The notes: generated from the sequence alone by a model not told the origin. Counted from the stretch's first letter, positions 3,900 through 45,757 are shown. The stretch is DNA of 64,000 nt from an uncultured Gammaproteobacteria bacterium (GCA_964430295.1 CAYSEV010000003.1:6184-70183); one strand, 5' to 3'. Numbers and translations are program-made.

Positions 3900-5909
3900 A
3901 TGATTTCATCGACACAAATCATGGTTAGTTTAGTTATCCTCGGGTGCATGGTTCTCTTAGGCGATGAAAAACAATCAATTGTTTTTATAGTTTCTGTAGC
4001 TGCGACAATTTGTCTTTATATTTATGATTGGTATAAAGGTAAAAAAAAGTATGTTATTGCGACGGACACTCTGGTGCTTTGGTTATTGCTTGGGGTGTCT
4101 TTCATACTATCATCAATACACTCGTTAAGTCGTGGATATTCATTCACAGAAGGTATCAAGTATATAAACGCCTTTTTGTTATTTGTCTATTTTTCAAATA
4201 AAACAGATCAAAAAGATATCCATCGATACGCAACAGCCTTATATTATTGGACCATTGTAATCCTCGTGATTTCGTATATGTTTGTTTTTTTCCCTATATT
4301 CAGGTCTTTTTTACCCCTGATGAACCTTTTGTATAAATCTTATGACCATAGTCATGTTGTCGATGTTTTGATATTTACAACCCCCTTATGGATATATATG
4401 TTGAAACAAAAAAAAGATCTGATCACCAAACTAAGTGTTCTGTTTTTAGCATCCGGTCTATTAACATCGTATGCAAGAGGCGCAATACTACTCATATTAA
4501 TTATGGGTGCTATTTTTGGGAAAAAATACCTTCACGGGAAATATAGCAAGCAAGGGTCCTGGTTTCTTTTCTTGAGCACTGTGCTAAGTATTGGCGCCCT
4601 TGTTTATTTTACGTACGGTATAAGGAGTAATCCTATATCAGGAGTATTACATAAACTAAACACTCAAAAAATGGTGACGGTTGAAAGCAGAATGGGCTTT
4701 TGGAAACAAGCGATAACTTCTATAAAAACATATCCTCTCTTTGGACAGGGACCCGGTACATTCTATTTGGTGTCCAAAAAATTTCAATCGGAGCCCAACT
4801 CATATTCCTGGTTCGCGCACAGCTTCCCTCTTCAGTCCGTCACAGAGATGGGTCTTTTAGGTTTTATAATTTTATTTCTCTTATTATATAAATTATTGTT
4901 TATTAATAAAAAAGGATTGTTATTTCATAGTGCTCTCAATATTACGCCCGAGGCCTCTCTACTTCATGGTATTATTCTGGTCTTTCTTTACAGTTTTTTT
5001 GAGATGAATATGGATTTTACAGTGGTTTGGGTTCTCTTTTGGTCTATACTAGGAATGTTAAATCAGGTTCAAAATAAATCGCATAGTTCCAACAAAAAAA
5101 CAAATATCCACGTAATCATTCCATTAGTTATTCTTAGTGTATTCTATGTGAGTGCCATTCTGGGTTCTATTACTAATGCAAATCATAGAACGCAAGATCT
5201 TGCAGTAATGATTATGCCCTATGATGCAAATATTGTCGGCTCATATCTTGAAAAATTGCCAACCAAAAAAGCCGTTACACAAACACAAAAAAAGATAATA
5301 CGATTTTTCCACGCATATAATTCCTCTATTCTTGTTAATTTGGCATCAGCCGAAACGGATCCGATAAAATATGATGATTATATGAAAACGGCGATTGAAA
5401 GTGATCCTCAAAACAGGTCAAATCTTGAAACGTACATAACCTATTCTCTCAAAAATAACAGAGACGATAATCTCCAATATATTGTTAAAACCATGGCACA
5501 GACCATAAGTGTACAAAAGCAAAAAGATCAAAACTATATAGAAACCAGATGGAAAAACATACACAATTGTTTTAACTCGGCATCACTAATCTGGAATGAT
5601 TCTCCGTATGTAGATACCTATCAGGCAAAATCTCTGTATTTTGCCTCATTATGTCTTATTAAAGAAGGAAATTTTGAAGATGGAAAACGATTGATGGAGA
5701 TTGCCGTTAACGCAAAAACCAGTTGGAGCAATATTTACATTGACTATGCGGCAATAATATGGTGGAATGAGGGAAATTACGCTAAAGCAAAAACAATTCT
5801 GAAAGAGTGTGAAAAAAATGAAAACGCTAGAAATCATTGCTCCCAGTTTGATAACGGCCAATTATCTCATACTAGTGTGCAGGATAAAAATATTTCATTT
5901 ATAAAATAA
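3900..5909 (+). CDS. polytopic membrane protein with O-antigen-ligase/polymerase-like (Wzy_C) core and C-terminal TPR-like soluble domain
   Basis: 669 aa. About 10 predicted TM helices in the N-terminal 420 aa. The loop motif HSFPLQSVTEMGLLGFIILFLLLY is typical of the O-antigen ligase family. The C-terminal ~250 aa is hydrophilic and helical, with TPR-like repeats. Its stop overlaps the start of the radical SAM gene. Confidence 0.55.
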   Translation: MISSTQIMVSLVILGCMVLLGDEKQSIVFIVSVAATICLYIYDWYKGKKKYVIATDTLVLWLLLGVSFILSSIHSLSRGYSFTEGIKYINAFLLFVYFSNKTDQKDIHRYATALYYWTIVILVISYMFVFFPIFRSFLPLMNLLYKSYDHSHVVDVLIFTTPLWIYMLKQKKDLITKLSVLFLASGLLTSYARGAILLILIMGAIFGKKYLHGKYSKQGSWFLFLSTVLSIGALVYFTYGIRSNPISGVLHKLNTQKMVTVESRMGFWKQAITSIKTYPLFGQGPGTFYLVSKKFQSEPNSYSWFAHSFPLQSVTEMGLLGFIILFLLLYKLLFINKKGLLFHSALNITPEASLLHGIILVFLYSFFEMNMDFTVVWVLFWSILGMLNQVQNKSHSSNKKTNIHVIIPLVILSVFYVSAILGSITNANHRTQDLAVMIMPYDANIVGSYLEKLPTKKAVTQTQKKIIRFFHAYNSSILVNLASAETDPIKYDDYMKTAIESDPQNRSNLETYITYSLKNNRDDNLQYIVKTMAQTISVQKQKDQNYIETRWKNIHNCFNSASLIWNDSPYVDTYQAKSLYFASLCLIKEGNFEDGKRLMEIAVNAKTSWSNIYIDYAAIIWWNEGNYAKAKTILKECEKNENARNHCSQFDNGQLSHTSVQDKNISFIK

Positions 5910-5910
5910 T

Positions 5911-6915
5911 ATGTATCCAAAACACGCAATTATCGCAGTAACTCTTAACTGTAATTCTCGTTGCATTATGTGCAACATATGGAAGAATCGTATTACAAAT
6001 GAGTTGCAACCACATGAGTTTCTAAAAATCCCCTCGTCACTCATAGATATTAATATTACCGGTGGAGAACCATTTTTACGAAAAGATCTGGTGGAAATTA
6101 TCGCAAATATGAAAAAAGCTGCTCCCAAAGCGAGAATGGTTATGATTTCGAATGGGTTTATGCCCCATAGAGCATCAGAGGATTTGCCAAAGATCTATAA
6201 AATAGATCCAAACTTTGCCTTTAGAGTTTCTATTGATGGTATAGGTAAAGCCCATGATGAAATTCGAAGGATTCCTGGCGGATTCGATAAGATCATGAAA
6301 ACCATTGAAGCAGCCAGAAAAGCCGGCCTGAAAGATTTAGGAGTCTCTTTTACAGTTATCGATCAAAATGTGAGTGAAATTCCTAAAGTACGAGAATTTT
6401 GTAAAAAAAATGATTTAGAGTTTTCTATTACCGTTGCAACCAATTCTGTTATATATTTTGGCTCAGATAAAAGTTCTCTTCGTCCAAAACATCCGGAAAA
6501 ACTTGAAGAACAACTTCGGAGTCTTTCGCGGGACCATTATAGTCATATTAATCCAAAAGAAATAAGTAGAGGGTGGTTTGTTAAAGGGCTAATAGAGTAC
6601 ATGAATACAGGCAAGCGAACACTCCCCTGCGATGCTGGACAAGGGTTTTATTATATGGACTCAGTCGGCAATGTTTATACGTGTCATTTAAAACCCTGGA
6701 TAATGGGTAATATACGACAAGATTCACTGGATCAGATTTTTGGAAGAAATATACACGCTGGCAAAGTCGCCGCGTGTAATGATTGCTGGATGGTTTGTAC
6801 GGCAAAATCAATGATGAAAAAACGTTTAGCCCTTATTTTACCCGGTGTTATTCCAGATGTACTGGATGCCTTGGTTCAATACGCATTCCAAAATAAATCA
6901 AGCTCTACCGTGTGA
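5911..6915 (+). CDS. radical SAM protein with C-terminal SPASM-like Cys cluster
   Basis: 334 aa. A CxxxCxxC motif occurs at residues 14-21 (CNSRCIMC). C-terminal cysteines CDAGQG...YTCH...ACNDCWMVC are typical of a SPASM/twitch auxiliary Fe-S domain. It is translationally coupled to the upstream Wzy-TPR gene. Confidence 0.7.
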   Translation: MYPKHAIIAVTLNCNSRCIMCNIWKNRITNELQPHEFLKIPSSLIDINITGGEPFLRKDLVEIIANMKKAAPKARMVMISNGFMPHRASEDLPKIYKIDPNFAFRVSIDGIGKAHDEIRRIPGGFDKIMKTIEAARKAGLKDLGVSFTVIDQNVSEIPKVREFCKKNDLEFSITVATNSVIYFGSDKSSLRPKHPEKLEEQLRSLSRDHYSHINPKEISRGWFVKGLIEYMNTGKRTLPCDAGQGFYYMDSVGNVYTCHLKPWIMGNIRQDSLDQIFGRNIHAGKVAACNDCWMVCTAKSMMKKRLALILPGVIPDVLDALVQYAFQNKSSSTV

Positions 6916-6932
6916 GAATGATATTCCGTATT

Positions 6933-7937
6933 TTATTTGTCTGACAGGATTGCCAATTGAAGTTCTTTTTTGAAATGTGAGTAGTCATTGGTTCTATAGA
7001 AATGCACACGTTTTGTGTGTTTGTATTCATCCCTCAAAAAATCTCCGACCAAGCAATTTTTATCATATGACAATGCCTCAGCAACACTAATTGGATACCC
7101 TTCAATATTAGACGGTAGGACAAATAATCTGCAGTTGCTGATTAACTCTCTTTTTTCACGCCCGAAGACGTATCCGGTAAATATGATTTTTTTGGATTTA
7201 GCAAGCTTATACAATGTCTTTGTATATATATCCGAATGACTGGATCCTCCTGCAAGAACGATAGGGACAGAGACATCATCAGATGCTCTTATAAGCCACT
7301 CAATGCGTTTCTCAGGCACAAATCTCCCTAAAAATAAGATGTAATTGTTTTTTCTTAGGCCATATTTTTTTGTGATTATCTGGGCTGTTATGTTGTGTTG
7401 TTTTGTTGTGCTGTATACATCTAATATTGTATCCCTCTTATAAATATGTTTATAGCGTTTCGCTATTTTTATAGAAACGGCATATAGATTATGAGAGCAG
7501 GCCAAAACCACCCTCTCAGAAATTAAAAGAAATATCTTTGCCCCAAGTCCCCATTTTTTTCGCTCCCAATCAAAAGAATGAATGGTGGTATGAATTTTTT
7601 TTCCAAAAAAGCGAGGGATAAATGAAAAAAACGCCGGACCAACACCGTGATACCATACTATATCATTTGAACTAAAAGCTGCATGAAGGGAAGCAAAAAA
7701 ACTATATGAAATAGTGTCTAAATGAGTACTGTTAATAGACCAGATTGGTATAAGTATTGCTCCCTTATAGCGTTTAATATCAGTATCTGTTTGTGTCCAT
7801 GATCGTATATAGCATGATACTCGCGAACCCTTTGTTATAGATTCCAGCTTGTGTTGTATATAAGCTTCAATACCAGATGTCCCAGAAAATTCCATCGGTA
7901 TTCCTCTCGCTCCAATTATCGCAATCGAAGATATCAT
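6933..7937 (-). CDS. glycosyltransferase family 4 (GT-B, retaining)
   Basis: 334 aa. FLGRFVPEKRIEWLI ... EGYPISVAEALS matches the GT4 EX7E-type C-terminal motif. Confidence 0.75.
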   Translation of the reverse strand: MISSIAIIGARGIPMEFSGTSGIEAYIQHKLESITKGSRVSCYIRSWTQTDTDIKRYKGAILIPIWSINSTHLDTISYSFFASLHAAFSSNDIVWYHGVGPAFFSFIPRFFGKKIHTTIHSFDWERKKWGLGAKIFLLISERVVLACSHNLYAVSIKIAKRYKHIYKRDTILDVYSTTKQHNITAQIITKKYGLRKNNYILFLGRFVPEKRIEWLIRASDDVSVPIVLAGGSSHSDIYTKTLYKLAKSKKIIFTGYVFGREKRELISNCRLFVLPSNIEGYPISVAEALSYDKNCLVGDFLRDEYKHTKRVHFYRTNDYSHFKKELQLAILSDK

Positions 7938-7939
7938 AA

Positions 7940-9094
7940 CTATAAATTATATAATTTTATATACTCATTAATATTACGAGTGGAATAATTTTGTTTTACC
8001 ATACTCTTTGCTAACAGGATTTTTCCCATCTCATCTTCATATGAATCAAGTGCTCTGATGAGTACTCTTGTCATCTCACTGTCGTTTTTTGCTATATATC
8101 CATACGTATTATTCATCTTAGTATCTAATCCATAAAAATATTTTGTTACAACGAGTGCGCCAGTAGAAAATGCGTCTAATATTGAAACGGGAAACCCCTC
8201 GCTTTTCGCTGTTGAATTGCACACAAAACATTTAGACTGTTTTAATAACAAAGATATATCTTTTAAAGGGGTGGTAATAAAAATGTTATGTTCCAATTTG
8301 TGATGGCGAATATATTGCATGCATGCATCTTTTTCAGAGCCCTCCCCTACTAACATGCAGATAATCTTTTTTTTGGACAATCGTATAACAGTTCGTAAAA
8401 GTGTTAATAATTGGAAAATTTGTTTTTCTTTCTCTAGTCTCCCGGCATAGATAATATCTATCCGCTTTACTTTCTTTGATAATTTACAGTCAGCATACCT
8501 TGACCAATTGGGAATTATTTGTATGGTGCGAAGCGGAATGCCATAAGATCTTATAAGATCAAGCTGTATAGCCGTTGTAGGGACAATAATTCTGTCAGCA
8601 TAAGGGTATAACAATCGTATACCTAGTTCCTGAACCCAAGGCAATACCATTGTTCGTACCATGGTAGAAGTATAATGTCCCTCATTTATAATGATTGTAA
8701 CTTTTCGCCAAAAAAATATAAATTTAGTAGCGAGGACTGTTAAAGAATATGGACTTATATGTGAAGCTATTGTTGCCGGCTTTATTAAAAAAATATGGTA
8801 CCAAGCCCAAAGCATAAAAAGAAAATAATTGTCAGAACCGTTCCATCGGTAAAAATCCAATATTCTCACATTGGGGTTATTTATTACATCTCGTAAATCA
8901 AAATCCCTTTTTTCTTTTAATAGTATATATACGGGGGTATTATTGTGAGAAAATTTTAGTCTATTTACTATATCAGTTATTCTAACAGGTATTCCTCCTA
9001 ACCCAAGATTTGAATACACAATAACCAAAGGTTTAGTCATATAAATATAAATGACTGAAGAAAAAATTAGCTGTAGAAGCAAACCCATCTTCAA
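7940..9094 (-). CDS. glycosyltransferase family 4 (paralog 1 of 3); real start probably at 9040
   Basis: IYAGRLEKEKQI ... EGFPVSILDAFSTG. An internal Met, MTKPLVIVYSNLGLGGIPVRITDI, aligns with the N-termini of the paralogs at 11891 and 13000. That start gives an ATGACTAA overlap with the epimerase stop. Confidence 0.75.
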   Translation of the reverse strand: MKMGLLLQLIFSSVIYIYMTKPLVIVYSNLGLGGIPVRITDIVNRLKFSHNNTPVYILLKEKRDFDLRDVINNPNVRILDFYRWNGSDNYFLFMLWAWYHIFLIKPATIASHISPYSLTVLATKFIFFWRKVTIIINEGHYTSTMVRTMVLPWVQELGIRLLYPYADRIIVPTTAIQLDLIRSYGIPLRTIQIIPNWSRYADCKLSKKVKRIDIIYAGRLEKEKQIFQLLTLLRTVIRLSKKKIICMLVGEGSEKDACMQYIRHHKLEHNIFITTPLKDISLLLKQSKCFVCNSTAKSEGFPVSILDAFSTGALVVTKYFYGLDTKMNNTYGYIAKNDSEMTRVLIRALDSYEDEMGKILLAKSMVKQNYSTRNINEYIKLYNL

Positions 9095-10025
9095 AGCTTT
9101 TCATATCATGTCCCCCAGTGATATCCAATATCTTTTTATTGTTTGCCCACGTTTGGAGCATCTCTATTGAAGAATACTGTCGTTTACGCAATTGTAAGGA
9201 GTACCCATGCTGCTTAATAATAGTCTTTGCAATATCGAGAACATCCTTTAATAAGACAGGTTTTCCTGTCCCTATATTAAAAATCCGAAAACCATTTGGA
9301 TGATATAGTGTACTCAAAAGCATATGTGTAAAATCATCAATATATGTCCAGTCTCTTGAGAGTTTCTCTGGACTATATATGTCTATTTCTGATTCATTTT
9401 TTGCCGAAATTAATAATTTCATCGGTAGCATATCCGGTCTGCCATTTGGGCCATACACGCTAAATGGACGAATGAGACTAATCGGTATTTTAGTTTTCTC
9501 ATAAAAGTTCTTCACAGCTATTTCCATAGCGGTCTTCGATGCTCCATACGTTGATATCGGTGTCGACATCTGTATCGGTTCTTGTTCTGAAAACGGAACA
9601 TTTGAGCAGTTTCCATACACGGATGATGAACTGAATATAACTGCATGCCTAATCGTAGTCCTACATGCTTCGAGCATAGAAAGTGTTCCAACCACATTTG
9701 TAGAAAAGTATTTAACGGGAAATTGCTCGCCATTTCTTACACCCACTTCAGCGGCAGTATGTATTAATACGGAAGGTTTAAATTCATTAATTAATAAACG
9801 CAATTTCACGGCCTCTGTTATAGATGTTTTAGAAAAAATAAAATTAGAGTGTTCTTTGAGCTCTATTAATCTATATTGCTTTATTTTTTTTGAATAATAT
9901 GTATTAAGATTATCTATACCAACGACAAGTGCATTATTGTCTTTTGAGAGTATTTTTTTACACACCGCGCTTCCTATAAAACCGGCGGCGCCTGTGACGA
10001 GGTAAACATGTGCATTACGTATCAT
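9033..10025 (-). CDS. NAD-dependent sugar-nucleotide epimerase/dehydratase (SDR family)
   Basis: 330 aa. The N-terminus has the Rossmann motif VTGAAGFIGSAV. YxxxK-type SDR, about the length of a UDP-sugar 4-epimerase. Confidence 0.8.
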   Translation of the reverse strand: MIRNAHVYLVTGAAGFIGSAVCKKILSKDNNALVVGIDNLNTYYSKKIKQYRLIELKEHSNFIFSKTSITEAVKLRLLINEFKPSVLIHTAAEVGVRNGEQFPVKYFSTNVVGTLSMLEACRTTIRHAVIFSSSSVYGNCSNVPFSEQEPIQMSTPISTYGASKTAMEIAVKNFYEKTKIPISLIRPFSVYGPNGRPDMLPMKLLISAKNESEIDIYSPEKLSRDWTYIDDFTHMLLSTLYHPNGFRIFNIGTGKPVLLKDVLDIAKTIIKQHGYSLQLRKRQYSSIEMLQTWANNKKILDITGGHDMKSFEDGFASTANFFFSHLYLYD

Positions 10026-10085
10026 AATAATTGGTGTTTAATAGCCTTCATGATATCATTTTATGAATAATTAAGAAATAAAATT

Positions 10086-14097: not shown

Positions 14098-14126
14098 ATT
14101 TTAGTGGTAAACGGAGCTAAAAATAT

Positions 14127-18360: not shown

Positions 18361-18383
18361 GTCCTAAATTGGATATATAATTA

Positions 18384-21380: not shown

Positions 21381-21418
21381 TATTAATAAATATCCAACAT
21401 CTTATATCTATCCAAAAA

Positions 21419-22273: not shown

Positions 22274-22289
22274 ACTATTATACCTGAAA

Positions 22290-24929: not shown

Positions 24930-24942
24930 AATCAAATTATAT

Positions 24943-28484: not shown

Positions 28485-28608
28485 GCGCGTATGGTACTAC
28501 TGCTTTTACAGTGAGGTCAAGGAATATACCTGTATAATGCTATATCGTATACGGATTGTATCGTCTTTGATATTATATAGCTGAAATATAGGAAATACAC
28601 TCGCATAT

Positions 28609-31190: not shown

Positions 31191-31205
31191 ATAGCAATTT
31201 TAAAA

Positions 31206-32189: not shown

Positions 32190-32210
32190 AGATATTGTAA
32201 AATAAACACA

Positions 32211-33581: not shown

Positions 33582-33645
33582 AGAATTAAATTATGAAGGA
33601 ATAAATATAGTGGGTAGTATACCTGAGAATAGTATCTATTAAAAT

Positions 33646-34275: not shown

Positions 34276-34294
34276 TATAAACATATGGAGACAT

Positions 34295-37948: not shown

Positions 37949-38844
37949 ATCCAGTCATCAAAGTTTTTACTTTCTTGTATAAAGATGTAAATACCAAGTG
38001 CAAACATAATGCCAATAACAATACAATTAGAGACAATCATCAGTGGTCCCGGCAACGCCGTACCTACGAATGCATGTTGAAGTAATTGAATTATTGAGGT
38101 GAGCGGATTCAGTCGCCAGAGCCATATATATTTTGATGGCATTTGTGTAAGCGGGTATACAATAGGACTGGCATAAAACCAGACGATCAATAGAGCTGAA
38201 ACAAAAAAATTAATATCCCTATAACGTGTATTGAGTGCAGATGTAAGTAAGCTTATCCCTGATGTAAATATACATAAGAGTACAATGGCAATCACGCTAT
38301 ATGGGAGTGAGTACAGTGTCATTGTTCCAATCGTTATTGTTGAAATAACAAACAACGCTAAGGCAGCAAGAAAATGTATCAAATTAGACATGATGATAGA
38401 GAGTGGTATGACTGCTCTTGGAAATGACGCTTTCTTAATAAGTGATCGTTCGTATACGATTGACGGTGTTGATTTGGATAATGAAAGTGAAAAAAAGTTC
38501 CATACAAGAAGTCCAATAAAAAGAAAATAGTTATAGTTTTTAATTGGTTCTTTGATAAATAATGGGAAAATGAATCCAATTATCAGCATTTGTAACAATG
38601 GATTTGCAACAATCCATACAAAACCGAAAACTGTATTTTTATATCTCGATTGCAATTCTGTTTCCGTTAATCTTGCAAGCAATTCAATAAATAGCTTCGT
38701 ATCTCTATTCATGGGTGTTATTATAGCCTTTATATTTGTTTTAGGTAATCCCTTTAGGAAGGTTATTTCAATACATATAGAATTTCTATGAACTATCATC
38801 CTCAAATTTCCCCTTGCATACCTCCAGAAATGCATGATATGCAT
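37945..38844 (-). CDS. ABC-2 type transporter permease (Wzm/TagG-like); real start probably Met45 (about 38712)
   Basis: Six TM helices. The N-terminal LARLTETELQSRYKNTVFGFVWIVANPLL is typical of the ABC-2 polysaccharide exporter start. The annotated start would overlap the upstream aminotransferase by 59 nt. Confidence 0.75.
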   Translation of the reverse strand: MHIMHFWRYARGNLRMIVHRNSICIEITFLKGLPKTNIKAIITPMNRDTKLFIELLARLTETELQSRYKNTVFGFVWIVANPLLQMLIIGFIFPLFIKEPIKNYNYFLFIGLLVWNFFSLSLSKSTPSIVYERSLIKKASFPRAVIPLSIIMSNLIHFLAALALFVISTITIGTMTLYSLPYSVIAIVLLCIFTSGISLLTSALNTRYRDINFFVSALLIVWFYASPIVYPLTQMPSKYIWLWRLNPLTSIIQLLQHAFVGTALPGPLMIVSNCIVIGIMFALGIYIFIQESKNFDDWI

Positions 38845-39634
38845 GCATTAATTTTTTCAACTCATCAGGTACAGAAACAAATTTGAAATTATTTATTTGA
38901 GCGATAGGAATAATATTAGAACTTGTGCTTGTTAAAAATGCGCCATCATAGTCAGAAATCTTGTCGAGAGGGATTGTTTGTTCTGACGTTTCAAAACCAT
39001 GCTTTTTTGCTATAAACAATACTGTTTGCCTTGTAACTCCCTCGAGCACATATTTTGCCGGTGGCGTCAATATTTTATTATTTTTTAATGCAAAAAAATT
39101 TGTCCTCGATCCCTCCAGAATACTATCATTTGAATCTGTAAAAAGCACGTCATAATCTCCCCTCTTTCTAGCTGCTGTAAAGTACAAATAGCTTTGAAGC
39201 ATATTCAGAGACTTTGCATTAGGGAGAAATCGTGTATATCTGACTGTATTTACGGATGCTCCATTGGTATACAATTTCCTATCCGGAAACAATGGCGCTA
39301 ACGGCAAAATATATATATTTGCGCTGTTATGCTTAACGTCTCCTATAAGTAAAATTTTAATATTAAAACTGGGCTGACAAGAGATTGTCTTTTCAATAAG
39401 AGAGCGTAGGAATGCTGAGATATCTTCCTGAGTGAACGTATGCGTTAATCCGAGAATTTCAGTTGATTTGAATAATCTTTGTATATGTTGTTCTTCAAAA
39501 TATATAATACCGTTACGCACTTTTAGTGTCTCGTATACTCCAAATCCATATTGATATTCAATACTATCGATTGGAATAGTAGCATTCGCTATAGGTTCTA
39601 GCTGTCCATTTTTTGAAAAATATGGAAATATCAT
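38786..39634 (-). CDS. class IV (fold-type IV) PLP aminotransferase (D-amino-acid/branched-chain aminotransferase or ADC-lyase-like)
   Basis: 282 aa. YQYGFGVYETLKVRNGIIYFEEQHIQRL is the class IV N-terminal E..K.. region with the catalytic Lys. The length fits the DAAT/ADCL subgroup. Confidence 0.7.
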   Translation of the reverse strand: MIFPYFSKNGQLEPIANATIPIDSIEYQYGFGVYETLKVRNGIIYFEEQHIQRLFKSTEILGLTHTFTQEDISAFLRSLIEKTISCQPSFNIKILLIGDVKHNSANIYILPLAPLFPDRKLYTNGASVNTVRYTRFLPNAKSLNMLQSYLYFTAARKRGDYDVLFTDSNDSILEGSRTNFFALKNNKILTPPAKYVLEGVTRQTVLFIAKKHGFETSEQTIPLDKISDYDGAFLTSTSSNIIPIAQINNFKFVSVPDELKKLMHAYHAFLEVCKGKFEDDSS

Positions 39635-39669: not shown

Positions 39670-40335
39670 TTGTTTTATGCATCTGCCTCGAAGATTGTAA
39701 TACATAATGATAATATACGATATATGTCTTTTATATACGGCGTAAGTATTCTCGCGTTGATTATATTATCACTTCCCCTTCTCATTTTAATTGTAATTCT
39801 TGGTTTTATATTCAATGGAAAGCCTATATTGTTTAAACAATTGAGAGTTGGGAAGGATGGCAATATATTTACAATTTACAAATTTAGAACAATGGTAAAC
39901 GATAGTGAAAAACAAAAAATGGATCTCATACGGTATAACGAAGCTGATGGACCCGTATTCAAAATTAAGAATGATCCACGTTATACACAAATCGGAAAAT
40001 TTTTAGCACATACTGGATTAGACGAATTACCACAACTTTGGAATGTTTTAAAAGGTGATATGGCTCTTATAGGCCCACGTCCGCTACCGGTAGATGAAGC
40101 AAAACGGCTTAAACCCTGGCAAAAAAAACGCCTTGGTATTAAACCCGGTATTATTTCCCCATGGATATTGCAGGGATATCACACGATGAGTTTTGATGCG
40201 TGGATGAGAAGTGATATTGCATACACCTCTGAGAAGTCATTTCTTTATGATGTTCGGTTGGCAATATCCGTTATATATTTGCTTCTCCGATTATTTATAA
40301 AAGAAATTTTCACATTGTATAGAAAACGTATATAG
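39670..40335 (+). CDS. initiating polyprenyl-phosphate sugar-phosphate transferase (small bacterial sugar transferase, PglC/WbaP-C-terminal type)
   Basis: 221 aa. KDGNIFTIYKFRTM ... GPVFKIKNDPRYTQIGKFLAHTGLDELPQLWNVLKGDMALIGPRP is a diagnostic PGT block. The likely true start is Met19 (39724). Confidence 0.85.
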   Translation: MFYASASKIVIHNDNIRYMSFIYGVSILALIILSLPLLILIVILGFIFNGKPILFKQLRVGKDGNIFTIYKFRTMVNDSEKQKMDLIRYNEADGPVFKIKNDPRYTQIGKFLAHTGLDELPQLWNVLKGDMALIGPRPLPVDEAKRLKPWQKKRLGIKPGIISPWILQGYHTMSFDAWMRSDIAYTSEKSFLYDVRLAISVIYLLLRLFIKEIFTLYRKRI

Positions 40336-40514: not shown

Positions 40515-40523
40515 AGGTTTAAT

Positions 40524-43304
40524 ATGACTAATGTTGAAGCGTTAGAGCTTTCGGGAAAACAGTCGTCAAATGAAGAGATATTACAGCACCTCCATGATTT
40601 TGGTGTAACACTTTCTTCCGATAGAGACATACTTGCAGCCCAATTATCTGTTGCCTTCGATGCTATTCCACAAGGAGAATTATCTGAGATGGCGGTCCTT
40701 AATTGGGAAAAACAAGATGAACGATTTAGTCAGCTGTTGGCCTCAATTTCACCGGATGATCAGAAAATACGTGATGTCTGTGCCAGAACACCACACGCCG
40801 GTCCTCTTGGCAATATCTTGAGAACTCTTGAAAATCCTCTCCATGCTTCACCATCAAATAAAAAAAATGCTGAGCTATTGCTGGAAGAAGCACGCCTCCT
40901 GTCGGTGTTAAACGGTACTCATAAGAGTATGGATGATTATATCTCTCAGGGAACTCGCGTAGTAACTATCAAAGCACAGCTAAATGATGTCAGAAAGGCA
41001 CATGAGCTTATCACAACAAGAAATGGATATAAGCTGACAACACAAGAAGCAATAGCAGAGGCACGAGCCGTTCGTGAAAACCCTCTTTTGCCAGCTGCAC
41101 GATTTGTGAAGAAAGAATATAGAAAAGCGACTGATGGTGTCACGGGTGTTATATACGAACACCGCACGAAAGTAGAGTTAAGCCGTAAGAAAAAAGAAGC
41201 CAGCAGAGCTCGCATGCGTGAATATTCTCAATACGTTGACGCATTGGCTGCCAACATGCGATTTGATAAAGGAGAAAAGACTGCAGAACGACTCCTTGAT
41301 GCAAGTTCATTTGATTTGCCTTCATGGGTGAAACATGTCCAACTTGATCAATCTGTCGGACCTATACGATCCGATATATCAACACGAATAGGACATGTTC
41401 TGACACTTTCGTCAACTGCAAAACTTCCTTCTGATATTGATAAGGCGCGTACACCAGCTGAAGCATTGCAGATGCTTGCAATTTCACAAGCAAAGGTTTT
41501 GTTTCTGGAAAAAAATGCTCCAGACTATGTCACGATGCCTGGGTTCGCTGCGAAGCGAAATATATGGTTTTTTGAGCGTGAAGCTAAGAGAATTTTGGAC
41601 CAAGGTCTCGATAAACGAAGAAGTACGGCTTGGTTGAAAACTGCTGAGTTAACTGTTGCGTTTAGCGTTATTGCCACAGCATGCGCTCCAAAAACATCAC
41701 CAACAATTGTTGTTGAAAGGACACCTCCTGCCGGTTTAACGGCAGAGCCTCCTTCATCTGGTACACCCAAAACAGAAGCACCACAAGTTACCTCTCCTGA
41801 GGTAACTGTAATTAAATCTGAGTCCGGCTTGAACAAAACAAAAGTACTGACCACTTTAAATTCAGAGTCGTATAAAAAGCTTACGGCAGAAGACAAGAAG
41901 GCAGCACCAAATCTCGTACAGTTATTTGATGCACTGAAGGCTAAATTTGCCGAGGAAAAAACATCAATGAGTCCTGAAGATATTCAGGTCTTGTACCTGA
42001 GAATTTTTCAGGCAAAAACTGACAAGAATGAAGCGTTTGATTGGGAGGTTGCGATTGTTCCGCTCGAGAGTCCCGAAGGGACAAAACCCGGATTTCAATA
42101 CGCAAAAGTTGCATTTATCGACGCGGATGGAAATGTTGTCACACACAATGTGGTTATAAATGACAATGAACTCATAGACAAACAAACCGCCGAAGCAACT
42201 GCAACAGCAGATGTGACTGAATTTGCTACAGCACCCGCACCAAAGCCTGCGACACAAAAAGATACGTTTACAGCTCAGACTATGCGTGTTGTGGATGGTC
42301 CACATAAAGGACAACTGTTATTTGCCGTTACTACACTTGAGGATGGGACGTTGTTGTATCTCTATCTGGACCCAACTGATGTGACCAAAACGCTTACACT
42401 GGAAAGTAAACAACAAAGCAAACTGGCCGAGGTTTGGGAGTCGTTAGGTGTTACAACAGCGGAAGCAGCAGGAATAATTGAAAAGCCTGCCTTAGTATTG
42501 CCTGATAAAAAAACAGAGTTAGGATATACGAAAGACATGATGGGAAATTATGTAAAAGTGGAAAATGGATTCACATACATATGGGATGAAGAACGTGAGG
42601 CGGGATATAGGCAATATTTCAGTGGGTATATACTAGACTTTCGTCCAGAAATCAATTTGCCTGATTCTAAGGGTAAAAACACGTGGAATGATGGTTTTTT
42701 GACGGAAGCATATGTCGATGGTGCATTTCTTGGTGAACAGGAATTGCCTTCTGCTATTCGTCCAGAAAATTTAGATCCTACAGGGAAAATAAATGTCACA
42801 GATTTCTTCCAAACTTTAATGATGCAACATATGGTGGATAGAGGAATAATAAAAAGTGTTTCTGATTTTGAAACTGCAAAATTTTGGTTGACACACGATT
42901 ATCATATTGATTTTACGACAGGGAATGGAGCTGAAAAACAAAGCTTTGGTATTTGGGATGGCAGCAAGATAATTGTTCACATTCGCGCAGACGCTGAGGA
43001 ATTAAAAGCAAATATGGAAACCAATGGGTTTTCTGAAGCCAAGTCGTATACAGTATATGGTGAGGAAAATAGCTATATGGTTAAGTTGTGGACGAAAAAC
43101 GGTAATTTATATGTAGATATCGCGCCAACACTGCCGGCATCAAAGTGGACCAATATGCAAATTACAGAGATGATTATGTTTTGGGTTGCCGTATTTGATC
43201 AGGGACCAGATTTGAGCGCTCCGCAGTCTGGAGAAATGCTCAACAAAATCGTGTTAAATAACAAAGGGCAATTGACGCTAATAGAGTTTACTCCAAGGAA
43301 ATAA
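40524..43304 (+). CDS. large hypothetical envelope protein: ~370-aa cytoplasmic N-domain, single TM, Pro/Thr/Ser linker, ~500-aa extracytoplasmic C-domain
   Basis: 926 aa with no N-terminal signal peptide. Hydrophobic segment LKTAELTVAFSVIATACAP near residues 375-395, followed by the PT-rich linker KTSPTIVVERTPPAGLTAEPPSSGTPKTEAPQVTSPEV. No catalytic motif recognised. GC is distinctly higher than the upstream island. Confidence 0.5.
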   Translation: MTNVEALELSGKQSSNEEILQHLHDFGVTLSSDRDILAAQLSVAFDAIPQGELSEMAVLNWEKQDERFSQLLASISPDDQKIRDVCARTPHAGPLGNILRTLENPLHASPSNKKNAELLLEEARLLSVLNGTHKSMDDYISQGTRVVTIKAQLNDVRKAHELITTRNGYKLTTQEAIAEARAVRENPLLPAARFVKKEYRKATDGVTGVIYEHRTKVELSRKKKEASRARMREYSQYVDALAANMRFDKGEKTAERLLDASSFDLPSWVKHVQLDQSVGPIRSDISTRIGHVLTLSSTAKLPSDIDKARTPAEALQMLAISQAKVLFLEKNAPDYVTMPGFAAKRNIWFFEREAKRILDQGLDKRRSTAWLKTAELTVAFSVIATACAPKTSPTIVVERTPPAGLTAEPPSSGTPKTEAPQVTSPEVTVIKSESGLNKTKVLTTLNSESYKKLTAEDKKAAPNLVQLFDALKAKFAEEKTSMSPEDIQVLYLRIFQAKTDKNEAFDWEVAIVPLESPEGTKPGFQYAKVAFIDADGNVVTHNVVINDNELIDKQTAEATATADVTEFATAPAPKPATQKDTFTAQTMRVVDGPHKGQLLFAVTTLEDGTLLYLYLDPTDVTKTLTLESKQQSKLAEVWESLGVTTAEAAGIIEKPALVLPDKKTELGYTKDMMGNYVKVENGFTYIWDEEREAGYRQYFSGYILDFRPEINLPDSKGKNTWNDGFLTEAYVDGAFLGEQELPSAIRPENLDPTGKINVTDFFQTLMMQHMVDRGIIKSVSDFETAKFWLTHDYHIDFTTGNGAEKQSFGIWDGSKIIVHIRADAEELKANMETNGFSEAKSYTVYGEENSYMVKLWTKNGNLYVDIAPTLPASKWTNMQITEMIMFWVAVFDQGPDLSAPQSGEMLNKIVLNNKGQLTLIEFTPRK

Positions 43305-43353
43305 CGTCTCTCCTCTACTTGTAATTTCTTGTTTTTTCTACTACGCTTGAGGT

Positions 43354-43995
43354 ATGGCGTTTCGGAAAATTTGGATAGTATTGATACTTGTAACAATCAT
43401 AGCAGTACCCCTTATTTTTGCCTTCATTGTACCGCATATGGATGATTTGGTGCACACGGCCTCAATGCTTAAGGCATCTAAACGAAGAGTGGGATCAAAC
43501 TACAAGATTGTAAACACGATCCCGAACTATACCATTGAGCTAAAGGATACAGCGTATTTGGACTATATAACAGGACAATTGACTATTTTTTCACCTAATG
43601 GCGTTATTGATGTGGCAGCTAATTCAGGTCACCGTGAGGTTAAAAAGCGATATACGGTAACAGATCTTCGCATTGAATTCGTATCTAAACTGGATAGATA
43701 TATATTAGGATTGTCAGGAAATGAGACCTTTTCAAGTTGGGGTACATATGCTGTAGAAGGAAATGTGTTGGTGGTAAAAATTGCACTGAATTTTAATGAT
43801 AGTATGTTATCTTCTTCACCGACTGCCCCTGAAGAGGTCTTTCTTGACACCTTGTATCAGACGCTATATTTTGCCCATGGTGTCACATACGGAGTTGATT
43901 TTACTGAGGGATTTGAAAAAAACAAAAAAGACATGCTTAATTTTTTACGCACGGGTATATTTGCCTGGCCGGTTAAAATCTCAAGGAACTCATGA
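43354..43995 (+). CDS. hypothetical signal-anchored extracytoplasmic protein
   Basis: 213 aa. N-terminal IWIVLILVTIIAVPLIFAFIV. Translationally coupled to the next gene by an ATGA overlap. Confidence 0.5.
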   Translation: MAFRKIWIVLILVTIIAVPLIFAFIVPHMDDLVHTASMLKASKRRVGSNYKIVNTIPNYTIELKDTAYLDYITGQLTIFSPNGVIDVAANSGHREVKKRYTVTDLRIEFVSKLDRYILGLSGNETFSSWGTYAVEGNVLVVKIALNFNDSMLSSSPTAPEEVFLDTLYQTLYFAHGVTYGVDFTEGFEKNKKDMLNFLRTGIFAWPVKISRNS

Positions 43996-45710
43996 AATAC
44001 GTTTTCTATAAAATTTTTATACTGTTTTTTGCTTTATTTTTGTACGTAAATAGTACTGTCCCCGTATATGCTAATGGGATTTGCAGCGGGCCTCCATATG
44101 ATTCTGCATGCGTCATGCAAAATGTTCCATATTTGCAAGATGTATATCAAGATCAGGGAGTGCCACCGTACGTAGTTCGCGTCTTAGTTGGAAGAATATG
44201 GGTAAATAGAACAGTATGTACAATCCCTCAATCAGGTGGCGGATCATGTCAATGTTGCACTGATGCGGGTGGATGTTATCTGGATTGTCCCGGAACTAAT
44301 AATAATAATAATAATAACGGCACGCCTGAGCCAACATTGCCTCCGGGGCGCACTCCAACGCCAACCAACACGCCTGCCCCAACTCCCGCATGTCAAAAAA
44401 TGTATTATTGTAATACAAGTACCTATACGTGCAGTCAAACAGGATCACAATACGATACGACGATCCCGTACCCGCTCTGTGGAAGTGCCTCCCCTACCTG
44501 TGCAGCCAATCTTGCTACATATTTACCGGGACAAACAACGGGTACCTGTTTTGACTCATTGGCTGCATGTCAATTTAGCTGCGTTGCGCCTCCGGGTACC
44601 GTGCGGATGCGTGCTGTGGTGGTCCCTTCTGGTACAAACACATGTGCAGCTGTGACATCAAGTACAAGCTATGCATCTGTAGATGTGTCCCTTTTCCCTG
44701 ACGGCACGACGAAAACAACAGCATCTGATGGAACTTATACAAGCGCAAGATGGACGAATTCAGATCCGGGTACAAAATCGTTTATCGATACACCTCCTGC
44801 AGATTATGTTCTTGCACTTGCCTGTTACAACACAACATCGCAGCCTGCATACTCGTCGGGATATACGGCTACACTTCCATCTGCTGAAACGCTCACCTGG
44901 CAACTTGGGTACACGGCTGGAGTCGGGTGGTTCCAGGCTCAGGGCGGAGACGTATATGCCGCTACTCAACTTCGATCATACATACCATCATCTGCCGTTG
45001 GCGGAAGATATTTTGATAAAGATGGCAATACCGGAGGTACTCCGGGTATTGTGACATTTGGCACAAGTGCGGATTTTGATAATACATCAGGGACAGGATA
45101 CGGATACGTATCAACAAAAAATTGGCTGGTCAAAGAAACCCAATCCGCAACAGATTATTATGCAGTCATGTATCATAGGTTTGGTTCCCCTACAACGGCA
45201 GATTATCCGGGTGGCACAACATTTACATCCAAGCCTGCATCGAGGACTGAACCGTACTATGTAAATGGTGATCTGATCGTTGATACAAATCAATGGAGCG
45301 TTGGAAATGGAGAAACAATCACTGTTCTGGTAAACGGGAGTCTGACAATAAATAAAAAAATTAACATAACAGGAACGGGATTTGTCGCTTTTATCGTAAA
45401 CGGAGATATTACTATAGGTTCAGGTGTCGGTACAACTTCAACCTCTTCAACACCTGTTCTGGAGGGAATCTATATTACCTCACCCTCAGGAACATTTAGG
45501 ACAGGAAGTTCTACGAGTGCAGCAGCACGACGGTTTGTAGGCAAAGGAACATTCGTGGCAGGAACATTTGCGCTTGAGCGTGACTTAGATGCCGATGGAC
45601 ATAATATTGATTATGCTGCAGATTTGTTTATTTATAATCCGGAACTCATGCTTCGAATGCCGGATAAAATGAAAGATTTGCCGGTAAGCTGGCAAGAAGT
45701 AGCGCCGTAA
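43992..45710 (+). CDS. secreted Cys-rich / Thr-Ser-Gly-rich surface protein with poly-Asn tract and Pro-Thr linker
   Basis: 572 aa. Signal peptide MKYVFYKIFILFFALFLYVNSTVPVYA. About 24 Cys in the first 200 aa (CxxC, CQCC). NNNNNNN then PTLPPGRTPTPTNTPAPTPA. The C-terminal 300 aa is rich in G/T/S/V and looks beta-rich. Confidence 0.5.
   Translation: MKYVFYKIFILFFALFLYVNSTVPVYANGICSGPPYDSACVMQNVPYLQDVYQDQGVPPYVVRVLVGRIWVNRTVCTIPQSGGGSCQCCTDAGGCYLDCPGTNNNNNNNGTPEPTLPPGRTPTPTNTPAPTPACQKMYYCNTSTYTCSQTGSQYDTTIPYPLCGSASPTCAANLATYLPGQTTGTCFDSLAACQFSCVAPPGTVRMRAVVVPSGTNTCAAVTSSTSYASVDVSLFPDGTTKTTASDGTYTSARWTNSDPGTKSFIDTPPADYVLALACYNTTSQPAYSSGYTATLPSAETLTWQLGYTAGVGWFQAQGGDVYAATQLRSYIPSSAVGGRYFDKDGNTGGTPGIVTFGTSADFDNTSGTGYGYVSTKNWLVKETQSATDYYAVMYHRFGSPTTADYPGGTTFTSKPASRTEPYYVNGDLIVDTNQWSVGNGETITVLVNGSLTINKKINITGTGFVAFIVNGDITIGSGVGTTSTSSTPVLEGIYITSPSGTFRTGSSTSAAARRFVGKGTFVAGTFALERDLDADGHNIDYAADLFIYNPELMLRMPDKMKDLPVSWQEVAP
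44297..44317 (+). repeat. (TAA)7 trinucleotide microsatellite, in frame as AAT = Asn7, inside the 572-aa gene
   Basis: Read directly: ggaactaataataataataataataacggc. Confidence 0.85.
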
Positions 45711-45757
45711 TACGTGAAGTTCTGGCTGCAATGCCTGTTGTATGATATAATTCTTAT

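What the first reader, a model, noticed from the sequence alone, without database searches (positions are those of the whole stretch)
3900..45757. About 42 kb inserted between divergent dnaA and rpmH at the origin; most of it is a low-GC glycan island
dnaA on the minus strand and rpmH-rnpA-yidD-yidC-jag on the plus strand are divergent, as in most bacteria, but here they are about 42 kb apart. By eye, 3.9-40.3 kb runs about 23-35% GC (for example 12001-12060 is about 23%), against about 45-58% for dnaA, jag, the 40.5-45.7 kb operon and the 60-62 kb genes. A second low-GC mini-block with Wzy-like and Wzx genes sits at 48.1-50.8 kb, between jag and rnhA. No integrase, transposase or tRNA flanks the island. 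Surface-glycan loci with atypical GC are usually horizontally exchanged. Finding one placed exactly in the otherwise conserved origin-proximal gap, where gene dosage and expression are highest, is unusual.
Basis: seen in the sequence. Interest (0 to 1): 0.65.

Follow-up and report, generated by a model that had tools for sequence, protein, structure and literature searches.

The report
Old glycan gene cluster beside dnaA
In this tiny uncultured bacterium (Gottesmanbacteria), about 40 kb of cell-surface sugar-polymer genes sit between dnaA and rpmH, two genes that are normally neighbours; relatives carry a similar cluster at the same site with different contents, so it is an old, changeable feature of the lineage, not a recent foreign insert.

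Summary
The layout is real. dnaA (2413-3780, minus) and rpmH (45758-45895, plus) are divergent and 42 kb apart. In 76 other genomes the typical gap is about 0.5 kb. The interval holds 30 tightly packed glycan-biosynthesis genes (3900-40335) and three unknown secreted-looking proteins (40524-45710).

GC steps fall at 3.9 and 40.6 kb, but they are small: 34% against 39-41%, not 23-35% against 45-58%. About 86% of the gap comes from amino-acid composition. Synonymous-site GC barely differs.

There are no tRNAs, integrases, transposases or flanking repeats. DnaA boxes cluster between dnaA and dnaN, so the cluster does not interrupt the predicted origin.

Relatives settle the interpretation:
- The nearest ones (DnaA 90-91% identical) share the gene order, at 32-88% protein identity.
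- Relatives at 74-78% carry a different glycan cluster at the same site, in intervals of 39-45 kb.
- Some clade members, and essentially all more distant Microgenomates, keep the tight ancestral dnaA/rpmH pair.
- Intermediates with one or three intervening genes exist.

So it is an insertion on an evolutionary scale, but old and lineage-wide. It behaves like a variable surface-polysaccharide locus at a fixed site. The Wzy/Wzx mini-block after jag is ancestral. Interest is moderate.

The parts
1096..2199 (-). dnaN (DNA polymerase III beta clamp)
   Evidence: The translation is 53-68% identical to genes called DNA_pol3_beta in relatives.
2256..2475 (.). Predicted oriC core: six DnaA boxes with at most one mismatch, all in the same orientation. 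Five are in the dnaA-dnaN spacer and one is just inside the 3' end of dnaA. An A-rich stretch lies at about 2300-2340.
   Evidence: The whole-window box count is at the chance level (29 against 25.4 expected), but six fall within 220 bp, where about 0.09 are expected. The same cluster is present in L081, L083, L084 and L001.
2413..3780 (-). dnaA
   Evidence: Bac_DnaA and Bac_DnaA_C domains. The closest named relatives are Candidatus Gottesmanbacteria.
3840..3858 (.). Inverted pair of DnaA boxes (TGTGGATAA g TTGTCCACA) in the 119-bp spacer between dnaA and the first glycan gene.
   Evidence: An equivalent pair sits upstream of dnaA in L081, L083, L084 and in the Amesbacteria outgroup L001.
3900..16365 (.). 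Glycan module A: a Wzy_C-family membrane protein of 669 aa (no other domain detected), a radical SAM/SPASM enzyme, four GT4 glycosyltransferases, an NAD-dependent sugar epimerase/dehydratase, an AsnB-type amidotransferase, a 498-aa multi-pass membrane protein with no family match, and a GT2 resembling polyprenyl-phosphate sugar synthases.
   Evidence: Pfam and NCBIfam (only AsnB passes its curated cutoff). The part from 3900 to about 13000-14100 is syntenic with L081/L082 at 32-77% aa identity.
16357..25716 (.). Glycan module B: a glutamine amidotransferase fused to a WbuX-like N-acetyl-sugar amidotransferase, a 998-aa PQQ-propeller/DUF5060 protein, a DUF4330 protein, a second Wzy_C protein, a GT1-like protein and a Methyltransf_24 protein.
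   Evidence: The part from 18384 to 25716 is syntenic with L091 at 38-70% aa identity.
25795..39634 (.). Glycan module C: two group-II PLP decarboxylases, a glutamine-synthetase-family ligase, a threonine-transaldolase/SHMT-like enzyme, an aldo-keto reductase, a TagF-family glycerophosphotransferase-like enzyme, a small kinase-like P-loop protein, a LicC-like nucleotidyltransferase, a SAM methyltransferase, an Orn/DAP-decarboxylase-fold enzyme, an ABC-2 exporter (ATPase plus permease) and a class IV aminotransferase.
   Evidence: Best solved-structure matches: LicC 1jyk at 5e-15 and threonine aldolase 7k34 at 2e-43. The gene order is identical in L091, at 50-88% aa identity.
39670..40335 (+). 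Small polyprenyl-phosphate phosphoglycosyl transferase (Bac_transf), the initiating enzyme. It is the conserved right-hand anchor of the locus.
   Evidence: Pfam 2.5e-51. It is 56-60% identical and in the same position in L085, L086 and L088.
40524..45710 (+). Three proteins of unknown function (926, 213 and 572 aa) with ordinary GC. The two smaller ones begin with a hydrophobic segment, and the 926-aa and 572-aa proteins have Thr/Pro-rich stretches. The last one has a weak DUF7305 match. They are part of the inserted interval.
   Evidence: Homologues lie before rpmH in L085 and L086 (52-53% for the 572-aa protein). In L112 a three-gene block containing a homologue of the 572-aa protein (47%) is the only thing between dnaA and rpmH.
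45758..47996 (+). rpmH, rnpA, yidD, yidC and jag(khpB) operon, with an extended -10 (TGATATAAT) just upstream of rpmH.
   Evidence: with homologues in the relatives.
48061..50815 (+). Wzy_C-family protein and Wzx-type flippase: an ancestral mini-block, not part of the insertion.
   Evidence: Pfam. It is present after jag in L085-L088, and at least a Wzy_C-like gene follows jag in most ancestral-type contigs. GC3 is 0.30-0.32, the same as the backbone.

Best explanation
The interval is a long-resident, modular gene cluster for cell-surface glycopolymers. It has built up inside the divergent dnaA/rpmH spacer in a sub-clade of Candidatus Gottesmanbacteria (CPR, Microgenomates).

Shown:
- The ancestral state is dnaN<dnaA<>rpmH-rnpA-yidD-yidC-jag-Wzy-Wzx-rnhA-DUF4012-L25, with a spacer of about 0.1-0.5 kb.
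- Within the clade the spacer holds 0, 1, 3 or about 35 genes.
- Genomes with the big locus keep its position and its right-hand end: the ABC-2 exporter, class IV aminotransferase, phosphoglycosyl transferase and unknown proteins before rpmH. A long Wzy_C gene also stays near dnaA. The interior differs between lineages.
- The DnaA-box cluster lies between dnaA and dnaN, so the insertion leaves the predicted origin intact.

Inferred:
- The low GC mainly reflects the Ile/Tyr/Phe/Asn/Lys-rich, Ala/Glu/Thr/Pro/Val-poor make-up of glycosyltransferases and membrane proteins in an AT-biased genome. It does not indicate foreign DNA in this genome.
- The interior is exchanged or replaced over time. In some relatives its synonymous GC is 12-13 points below the backbone.

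Inferred biochemistry:
- The Bac_transf enzyme starts a lipid-linked glycan, which the GT4/GT2 enzymes extend and the amidotransferases, epimerase and radical SAM enzyme modify.
- One branch is handled by Wzy_C-family proteins together with the Wzx flippase after jag.
- A second, teichoic-acid-like branch makes an amino-alcohol-type head group (transaldolase, decarboxylases, methyltransferase). The kinase-like protein and the LicC-like enzyme activate it as a CDP derivative, a TagF-family enzyme adds it as a phosphodiester, and the ABC-2 transporter exports the product.
For: - Gene content.
- GC steps at 3.9 and 40.6 kb.
- GC decomposition: GC1 differs by 0.10, GC2 by 0.056 and GC3 by 0.027. 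Four-fold-site GC is 30.7% against 33.3%. Island proteins recoded with backbone codon usage would be 35.2% GC, against 34.3% observed and 40.5% for the backbone.
- Same junction and synteny in the nearest relatives: L081/L082 and L091.
- Same site with different content: L083/L086 have a 38.7 kb interval and L084/L085 a 44.9 kb interval; also L089 and L090 and about a dozen JGI contigs.
- Ancestral adjacency: L087, 67 of 76 outgroup genomes, and nearly all metagenome contigs at or below 63% N-terminal DnaA identity.
- Intermediates: L095 has one gene and L112 three genes.
- Inverted version still linked to rpmH: L088.
- GC offset in all relatives. GC3 offset is 0-1 points in L081 and L084, 6 in L083, and 12-13 in L089 and L090.
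- The GS-like gene in mid-island has only one close homologue (50%, in L091). The next hits are about 42% identical, in Patescibacteria, Chloroflexi and Cyanobacteria, and none of the top 120 lies on the long contigs of the other relatives.
- DnaA boxes.
Against: - No complete interval from a relative could be read. Only stretches of about 10 kb either side of the query genes (dnaA, yidC, the GS-like gene) were available, so 'variable interior' rests on the sampled ends and on one mid-island gene.
- The DnaA tree is a single-gene neighbour-joining tree without support values. It shows big-locus and ancestral states interleaved, so one gain with several losses cannot be told from several gains.
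- Island genes on the two strands have the same third-position GC skew (0.071 and 0.061). Flank genes show 0.186 (plus strand) against 0.011 (minus strand). This is a compositional oddity consistent with some foreignness or frequent inversion.
- All enzyme roles except AsnB are family-level only, below the NCBIfam equivalog cutoffs. The proposed chemistry is untested.
Confidence: 0.75

Rival explanations
1. It is a recently acquired genomic island: a low-GC glycan cassette from a foreign donor inserted next to the origin in this genome.
For: - The GC step is sharp and significant.
- GC3 is slightly lower in the island (0.290 against 0.318, p = 0.006).
- The island lacks the replication-strand skew seen in the flank.
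- The mid-island GS-like gene has a patchy distribution.
- Related loci in L089 and L090 do look foreign, with GC3 12-13 points low.
Against: - There are no mobility genes, tRNA or flanking repeats.
- Relatives with only 38-88% protein identity across these genes keep the same order at the same site, so the locus predates their divergence.
- 86% of the GC gap is amino-acid composition.
- The locus GC follows each host genome's GC.
Confidence: 0.08
2. The dnaA/rpmH spacer in this clade is an active cassette-exchange hot spot. Whole glycan modules would be swapped between lineages by homologous recombination, using the conserved flanks (dnaA on one side; the phosphoglycosyl transferase and rpmH operon on the other), as happens at pneumococcal cps or enterobacterial O-antigen loci. 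The window would be one allele among many.
For: - The flanks and position are conserved while the interiors differ.
- Protein identity varies widely between adjacent genes when the window is compared with L081 (32-77%).
- The dnaA-proximal genes in L089 and L090 have foreign-like GC3.
- A DNA-uptake or type IV secretion locus sits next to dnaN in relatives (PMC12102498).
Against: - No recombination breakpoints or shared near-identical cassettes between distant lineages were seen.
- The genomes sampled are too diverged (DnaN 53-68% identical) to detect recent exchange.
- The pattern could also arise from slow vertical divergence with gene gain and loss.
Confidence: 0.3
3. The origin is not next to dnaA but near 38-40 kb, at the right end of the island, as the cumulative GC-skew minimum suggests. 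The island would then lie on the other replichore and be transcribed mostly co-directionally with the fork.
For: The cumulative GC skew falls until about 37-38 kb and rises afterwards. Sixty percent of island coding length is on the minus strand.
Against: - There is no DnaA-box cluster at 40.3-40.5 kb or 45.7 kb. Six boxes cluster at 2256-2475 and a pair lies at 3840-3858, a layout conserved in relatives and the outgroup.
- Plus- and minus-strand island genes have equal coding-strand skew, so the trough is explained by gene orientation alone.
Confidence: 0.07
4. It is an assembly chimera that joins the dnaA region to an unrelated glycan contig.
For: None specific. Metagenome assemblies can mis-join.
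Against: The same dnaA/Wzy_C junction and the same phosphoglycosyl transferase/unknown-protein/rpmH junction recur in independent assemblies from ENA, NCBI, Logan and JGI.
Confidence: 0.01

Closest known systems
Variable surface-polysaccharide loci at fixed chromosomal sites (enterobacterial O-antigen cluster between galF and gnd; Streptococcus pneumoniae cps between dexB and aliA). Comparison from established knowledge.
   Same: - The flanking genes and position are conserved while the interior gene content differs between lineages.
- The content type matches: an initiating phosphoglycosyl transferase, many glycosyltransferases, sugar-modifying enzymes, Wzy/Wzx and/or an ABC exporter.
- GC is lower than the rest of the genome.
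   Different: - The site is the dnaA/rpmH divergent spacer at the predicted origin, in a CPR bacterium.
- The locus is much larger (about 36 kb, 30 genes) and combines several pathways.
- Variation is seen between deeply diverged lineages, not between strains of one species.
- Cassette exchange has not been demonstrated.
Wall teichoic acid and phosphocholine-decoration pathways of Gram-positive bacteria (TagF/TarL, TagGH, TarD/TarI, LicA/LicC/LicD). Comparison from established knowledge.
   Same: A TagF-family domain, an ABC-2 exporter pair, a nucleotidyltransferase whose best solved relative is LicC, and a small kinase-like protein next to it.
   Different: - No TagO/WecA-type or TagA/TagB enzymes and no LicD or LCP ligase were detected among the ORFs scanned. 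The initiator is a Bac_transf enzyme.
- The module carries decarboxylases, a transaldolase-like enzyme and a GS-family ligase, which point to a different, unknown head group.
Origin-proximal type IV secretion locus of Patescibacteria (PMC12102498)
   Same: It is another cell-envelope system that lies directly beside dnaA-dnaN in Microgenomatia. It is present on the other side of dnaN in all relatives examined.
   Different: It is a different machinery, it lies on the dnaN side, and it is conserved rather than variable. The glycan locus on the dnaA side did not come up in my four literature searches or in the passages of that paper I read.

Membership tests
Horizontally acquired genomic island | Base composition and codon usage differ from the host backbone | tested here: inconclusive
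   Total GC is 34.3% against 40.4% (p = 3e-9), but GC3 is 0.290 against 0.318 and four-fold-site GC is 30.7% against 33.3%. 86% of the gap is amino-acid composition. The strand-skew pattern does differ from the flank.
Horizontally acquired genomic island | Mobility genes (integrase, transposase, recombinase) in or beside it | tested here: not met
   No such domain is found in any of the 33 ORFs between 3900 and 45710. The region is 98.5% coding, which leaves no room for remnants.
Horizontally acquired genomic island | Insertion at a tRNA/tmRNA gene, or flanking direct repeats | tested here: not met
   There are no tRNA or tmRNA genes in the window. Only short, low-complexity, chance-level repeats were found.
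Horizontally acquired genomic island | Absent from close relatives | tested here: not met
   The nearest relatives (L081/L082, L091) carry the same genes in the same order at the same site. The locus is absent only in more distant clade members and outgroups.
Variable surface-polysaccharide locus at a conserved site (O-antigen/cps-like) | Same chromosomal position between conserved flanking genes in different lineages | tested here: met
   dnaA lies on one side and the phosphoglycosyl transferase, unknown proteins and rpmH on the other in the window, L083/L086 and L084/L085. The intervals are 42.9, 38.7 and 44.9 kb.
Variable surface-polysaccharide locus at a conserved site (O-antigen/cps-like) | Interior gene content differs between lineages | tested here: met
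   The dnaA-proximal 10 kb differs among L081, L083, L084, L089 and L090. The GS-like gene was found only in the window and L091. Only the ends of the relatives' intervals could be read.
Variable surface-polysaccharide locus at a conserved site (O-antigen/cps-like) | Encodes an initiating transferase, glycosyltransferases, and an export or polymerisation system | tested here: met
   Bac_transf, five GT4-type, one GT1-like and one GT2 glycosyltransferases, two Wzy_C proteins and an ABC-2 exporter. Wzx lies just outside, at 49514.
Variable surface-polysaccharide locus at a conserved site (O-antigen/cps-like) | Cassettes exchanged between strains by recombination in the flanks | not testable with these tools
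   This needs many complete, closely related genomes. Those available are deeply diverged.
Wall-teichoic-acid-type pathway | TagF/TarL-family phosphotransferase, a TagGH-type ABC exporter and a CDP-activating nucleotidyltransferase | tested here: met
   Glyphos_transf at 7.5e-17, and ABC_tran plus ABC2_membrane. The nucleotidyltransferase's best PDB hit is LicC. All of these are family-level matches only.
Wall-teichoic-acid-type pathway | TagO/WecA initiator, TagA/TagB linkage-unit enzymes and an LCP ligase | tested here: not met
   None of these families appears among the Pfam hits for the 43 window ORFs scanned (all of 3900-45710 plus selected flank genes). They could be encoded in unscanned flank ORFs or elsewhere in the genome.
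Bacterial oriC next to dnaA | Cluster of DnaA boxes in a spacer flanking dnaA | tested here: met
   Six boxes lie within 220 bp at 2256-2475 and an inverted pair at 3840-3858. The layout is conserved in L081, L083, L084 and L001.
Bacterial oriC next to dnaA | GC-skew sign change at the site | tested here: inconclusive
   The minimum within the window is at about 38 kb and is driven by gene orientation. A 64-kb window cannot show the chromosome-wide switch.

The most novel reading that the evidence does not exclude
In a Gottesmanbacteria sub-clade the dnaA/rpmH spacer at the origin may have become a dedicated 'landing pad' for surface-glycan cassettes. These cassettes would be gained, lost, inverted and swapped between lineages using the very conserved flanks as homology arms, possibly with help from the adjacent type IV secretion/DNA-uptake system. 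Together, the two systems either side of dnaA-dnaN would set the cell-surface identity and host specificity of these episymbionts.
Probability: 0.25. Interest if true: 0.6.

Novelty: new variant of a known kind. Interest (0 to 1): 0.42.

Why it matters
- The dnaA/rpmH pair is among the most conserved gene adjacencies in bacteria and is widely used to find origins and to orient genomes. A whole clade in which the spacer has grown to about 40 kb shows that the adjacency is dispensable when the DnaA-box cluster lies on the dnaN side. It also gives a graded series (0, 1, 3 and about 35 genes) for studying how such a site fills up.
- CPR bacteria are thought to live attached to host cells. A large, lineage-variable surface-glycan cluster, including a teichoic-acid-like branch with an unusual amino-alcohol-type head group, is a reasonable candidate for determining attachment or host range. 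It sits beside the type IV secretion locus already noted near the origin in these bacteria.
- The result is also a caution: a sharp low-GC block need not be foreign DNA.

Tried and rejected
- The genome-contig scan with full-length DnaA was saturated by universally conserved peptide patterns. It returned only distant genomes (50% identity or less). These served as an outgroup sample but included no close relatives.
- Exact look-ups of the window's own DnaA found no contig on record, which cost two look-ups.
- Flanking direct or inverted repeats as attachment sites: only short AT-rich chance matches.
- tRNA/tmRNA and Rfam: nothing.
- GC skew as an origin locator: rejected for this window, because the trough at about 38 kb follows from 60% minus-strand coding and equal coding-strand skew on both strands.
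- Using the whole-window DnaA-box count as evidence: rejected, since 29 against 25.4 expected is not significant. Only the local clustering is informative.
- NCBIfam equivalog names for the module C enzymes: all fall below the curated cutoffs, so only family-level roles are claimed.
- Literature searches for an island between dnaA and rpmH, or for Gottesmanbacteria glycan loci, found nothing relevant apart from the type IV secretion paper.

Full report
**What is in the window**

ORF calls and domain searches give this layout:
- dnaN 1096-2199(-) and dnaA 2413-3780(-).
- Thirty tightly packed ORFs from 3900 to 40335.
- Three proteins of unknown function from 40524 to 45710(+).
- rpmH 45758-45895, rnpA, yidD, yidC and jag, ending at 47996(+).
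- A Wzy_C-family gene (48061-49431) and a Wzx-type flippase (49514-50815).
- RNase H, a DUF4012 protein and ribosomal protein L25.

The closest named DnaA and YidC relatives are Candidatus Gottesmanbacteria, which belong to the Microgenomates within the CPR. The basic observation therefore holds: dnaA and rpmH are divergent and 42 kb apart.

**Composition**

An unbiased two-breakpoint segmentation of 100-bp GC values puts the steps at 3,900 and 40,600. The segment means are 41.2%, 34.1% and 39.5%, and none of 200 permutations reaches this.

The size of the contrast is not. dnaA is 43.3% GC, jag 42.8%, the 40.5-45.7 kb genes 38.5-45.1% and the 60-62 kb genes 40.7-44.9%. None of these is 45-58%.

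Splitting by codon position shows where the gap comes from:

| Measure | Island | Backbone |
|---|---|---|
| GC1 | 0.40 | 0.50 |
| GC2 | 0.335 | 0.39 |
| GC3 | 0.290 | 0.318 |
| Four-fold-site GC | 30.7% | 33.3% |

Island proteins recoded with backbone codon usage would still be only 35.2% GC, against 34.3% observed and 40.5% for the backbone. About 86% of the gap is therefore amino-acid composition. The island proteins are rich in Ile, Tyr, Phe, Asn and Lys, and poor in Ala, Glu, Thr, Pro and Val.

**Mobility signatures**

There are no tRNA or tmRNA genes and no Rfam matches. No integrase or transposase domain appears in any ORF of the interval. No meaningful flanking repeats were found. The region is 98.5% coding.

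**Origin**

The whole-window count of DnaA boxes with at most one mismatch is at the chance level: 29 against 25.4 ± 5.6 expected. Their placement is not random, though. Six boxes, all in one orientation, fall within 2256-2475 (five in the dnaA-dnaN spacer, one just inside the 3' end of dnaA), and an inverted pair sits at 3840-3858 upstream of dnaA. The same layout occurs in relatives L081, L083 and L084 and in the Amesbacteria outgroup L001. There is no cluster near 40.4 or 45.7 kb. The predicted origin is therefore on the dnaN side of dnaA, and the inserted DNA does not interrupt it.

The cumulative GC-skew minimum in the window is at about 37-38 kb. Plus- and minus-strand island genes have the same coding-strand third-position skew (0.071 and 0.061), and 60% of island coding length is on the minus strand. 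That alone produces the trough. Flank genes do show a strand asymmetry (0.186 against 0.011), so the island lacks the replication-strand signature of its surroundings. This is a minor compositional oddity.

**How unusual the gap is**

In 76 evaluable genomes from a broad scan, rpmH lies divergent upstream of dnaA in 67. The median gap is 514 bp and the maximum 5.5 kb. Outgroups L001 and L010 also keep the order jag, Wzy, rnhA, DUF4012, L25 (L010 with Wzx as well). The low-GC 'mini-block' at 48-51 kb is therefore ancestral, and its GC3 equals the backbone's.

**Relatives**

| Locus | DnaA identity to window | What lies between dnaA and rpmH |
|---|---|---|
| L081/L082 | 91% | Same first 8-9 genes next to dnaA (Wzy_C, radical SAM, GT, GT, epimerase, AsnB, GT4) at 32-77% aa identity, then diverges |
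| L083/L086 and L084/L085 (each pair on one contig) | 76% and 78% | Glycan genes at both ends of intervals of 38.7 and 44.9 kb (window 42.9 kb). The right end is conserved: the phosphoglycosyl transferase and unknown proteins before rpmH in both, with the ABC-2 exporter in L085 and the class IV aminotransferase in L086. The dnaA-proximal content differs (PQQ/DUF5060, RGP, Wzy_C). |
| L089 and L090 | 74% and 75% | RGP and Wzy_C next to dnaA, followed by yet other glycosyltransferase sets |
| L087 | 69% | Nothing: the tight ancestral pair |
| L088 | 71% | The whole block from the phosphoglycosyl transferase and rpmH through L25 is inverted and lies upstream of dnaA, still with glycan genes beyond the transferase |

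A metagenome scan using the clade-specific N-terminus of DnaA added about 65 contigs with usable upstream sequence:
- Glycan genes abut dnaA in most contigs at or above 65-70% N-terminal identity.
- They abut dnaA in none of the roughly 40 contigs at or below 63%. Nearly all of those have rpmH within about 70-300 bp; the exceptions are 0.67, 1.9 and 7.5 kb.
- Intermediates exist. L095 has one intervening gene. L112 has three, including a homologue of the window's 572-aa protein.

A single-gene neighbour-joining DnaA tree, without support values, shows an almost uniformly glycan-bearing sub-clade around the window. Elsewhere in the crown clade the two states are interleaved. One gain followed by losses cannot be told apart from repeated gains.

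**Composition in relatives**

The glycan part is 3-10 GC points below each genome's own backbone, even though those backbones range from about 40 to 52% GC. The locus follows its host's composition. GC3 gives a more varied picture: no offset in L081 and L084, 6 points in L083, and 12-13 points in L089 and L090. Some versions of the locus therefore do look recently imported.

The mid-island GS-family gene has only one close homologue, at 50% identity in L091. The next hits are about 42% identical and come from Patescibacteria, Chloroflexi and Cyanobacteria. None of the top 120 hits lies on the long contigs of the other relatives.

**Interpretation**

The locus predates the divergence of relatives that are now only 38-88% identical in these proteins. 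Its low GC is mostly a matter of protein composition.

The best description is a lineage-specific surface-polysaccharide locus at a fixed site, with conserved ends and variable contents. This is the same kind of organisation as O-antigen or capsule loci, but at an unusual address.

**Likely function (family-level inference only)**

- A small Bac_transf phosphoglycosyl transferase initiates the glycan.
- Five GT4-type, one GT1-like and one GT2 glycosyltransferases extend it.
- AsnB-type and WbuX-like amidotransferases, an epimerase and a radical SAM enzyme modify it.
- Wzy_C-family proteins, together with the neighbouring Wzx, handle one branch.
- Module C (25.8-39.6 kb) looks teichoic-acid-like. 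It has a TagF-family enzyme and an ABC-2 exporter. Its nucleotidyltransferase has LicC (1jyk) as its best solved relative, and a kinase-like protein lies beside it. It also has two PLP decarboxylases, an Orn/DAP-decarboxylase-fold enzyme, a threonine-transaldolase-like enzyme (best match 7k34), a methyltransferase, an aldo-keto reductase and a GS-family ligase.
- I infer a CDP-activated amino-alcohol-type head group that is added as a phosphodiester.
- Only AsnB passes an NCBIfam curated cutoff.

**Context and verdict**

A type IV secretion locus next to dnaN, seen in every relative examined, has been described for Patescibacteria, with the same untested 'origin dosage' speculation (PMC12102498). 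My four literature searches found no report of the glycan locus on the other side of dnaA.

This is a real, well-delimited, moderately interesting structural feature: a new variant of a known kind of locus. It is not a recent horizontally acquired island.

Noticed in passing
window 92-1087; L081, L083, L084 and L087-L090 at about 12.6-21.4 kb: Directly beyond dnaN, every relative carries a conserved type IV secretion-like set: PrgI, TraC-like, a VirB4-type ATPase, a large protein (Peptidase_M23 or C39-like in most), and a DUF87/TrwB coupling-protein-like gene. The window's first ORF (331 aa, no Pfam hit) is the homologue of the first gene of that set in L081 (58%). The origin is thus flanked by two cell-envelope systems. 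The secretion side is described in PMC12102498.
   Followed up: partly
L090 15804-19478: The VirB4-like ATPase in this relative is 1224 aa long and carries Intein_splicing and LAGLIDADG domains. It is an intein-containing type IV secretion ATPase.
   Followed up: no
window 40524-45710; L085 3119-9250; L086 2516-9166; L112 5494-9946: Three poorly conserved proteins of unknown function always sit just upstream of rpmH in genomes that carry the locus. The two smaller ones begin with a hydrophobic segment, the 926-aa and 572-aa proteins have Thr/Pro-rich stretches, and the last has a weak DUF7305 match. In L085 and L086 a PMT-family (protein O-mannosyltransferase-like) gene follows them. In L112 a three-gene block containing a homologue of the 572-aa protein is the only insert between dnaA and rpmH. 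They may be glycosylated surface proteins and may have been the first occupants of the spacer.
   Followed up: partly
L088 (CAZVTT010000001.1) 1-11383: The whole segment from the phosphoglycosyl transferase and rpmH through L25 is inverted relative to dnaA, which puts L25 next to dnaA and co-oriented with it. This is an origin-adjacent inversion that keeps the glycan genes linked to rpmH.
   Followed up: partly
window 3900-40335: Sixty percent of island coding length is head-on to a fork leaving the predicted origin, against 11% in the right flank. Island genes also show no leading/lagging difference in third-position GC skew (0.071 against 0.061), unlike the flank (0.186 against 0.011).
   Followed up: yes
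window 2413-3780 versus 1096-2199: DnaA is unusually conserved in this clade: 90-91% identical to the nearest relatives, where DnaN is only 68% and the adjacent 331-aa protein 58%. DnaA identity therefore overstates how closely related the genomes are.
   Followed up: partly
window 3781-3899: The first glycan gene starts 41 bp beyond the inverted DnaA-box pair of the dnaA promoter region, the place rpmH occupies in the ancestral layout. Its promoter may therefore be under DnaA control.
   Followed up: no
window 59666-60856: A 396-aa protein has a NAGPA (phosphodiester glycosidase, 'uncovering enzyme'-like) domain at 2e-13. It could be relevant to phosphodiester-linked surface glycans.
   Followed up: no
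window 22290-23828(-) and 23760-24929(+): The mechanically called starts of these two divergent ORFs (one a TTG) overlap by 69 bp. At least one start is probably mis-called.
   Followed up: no
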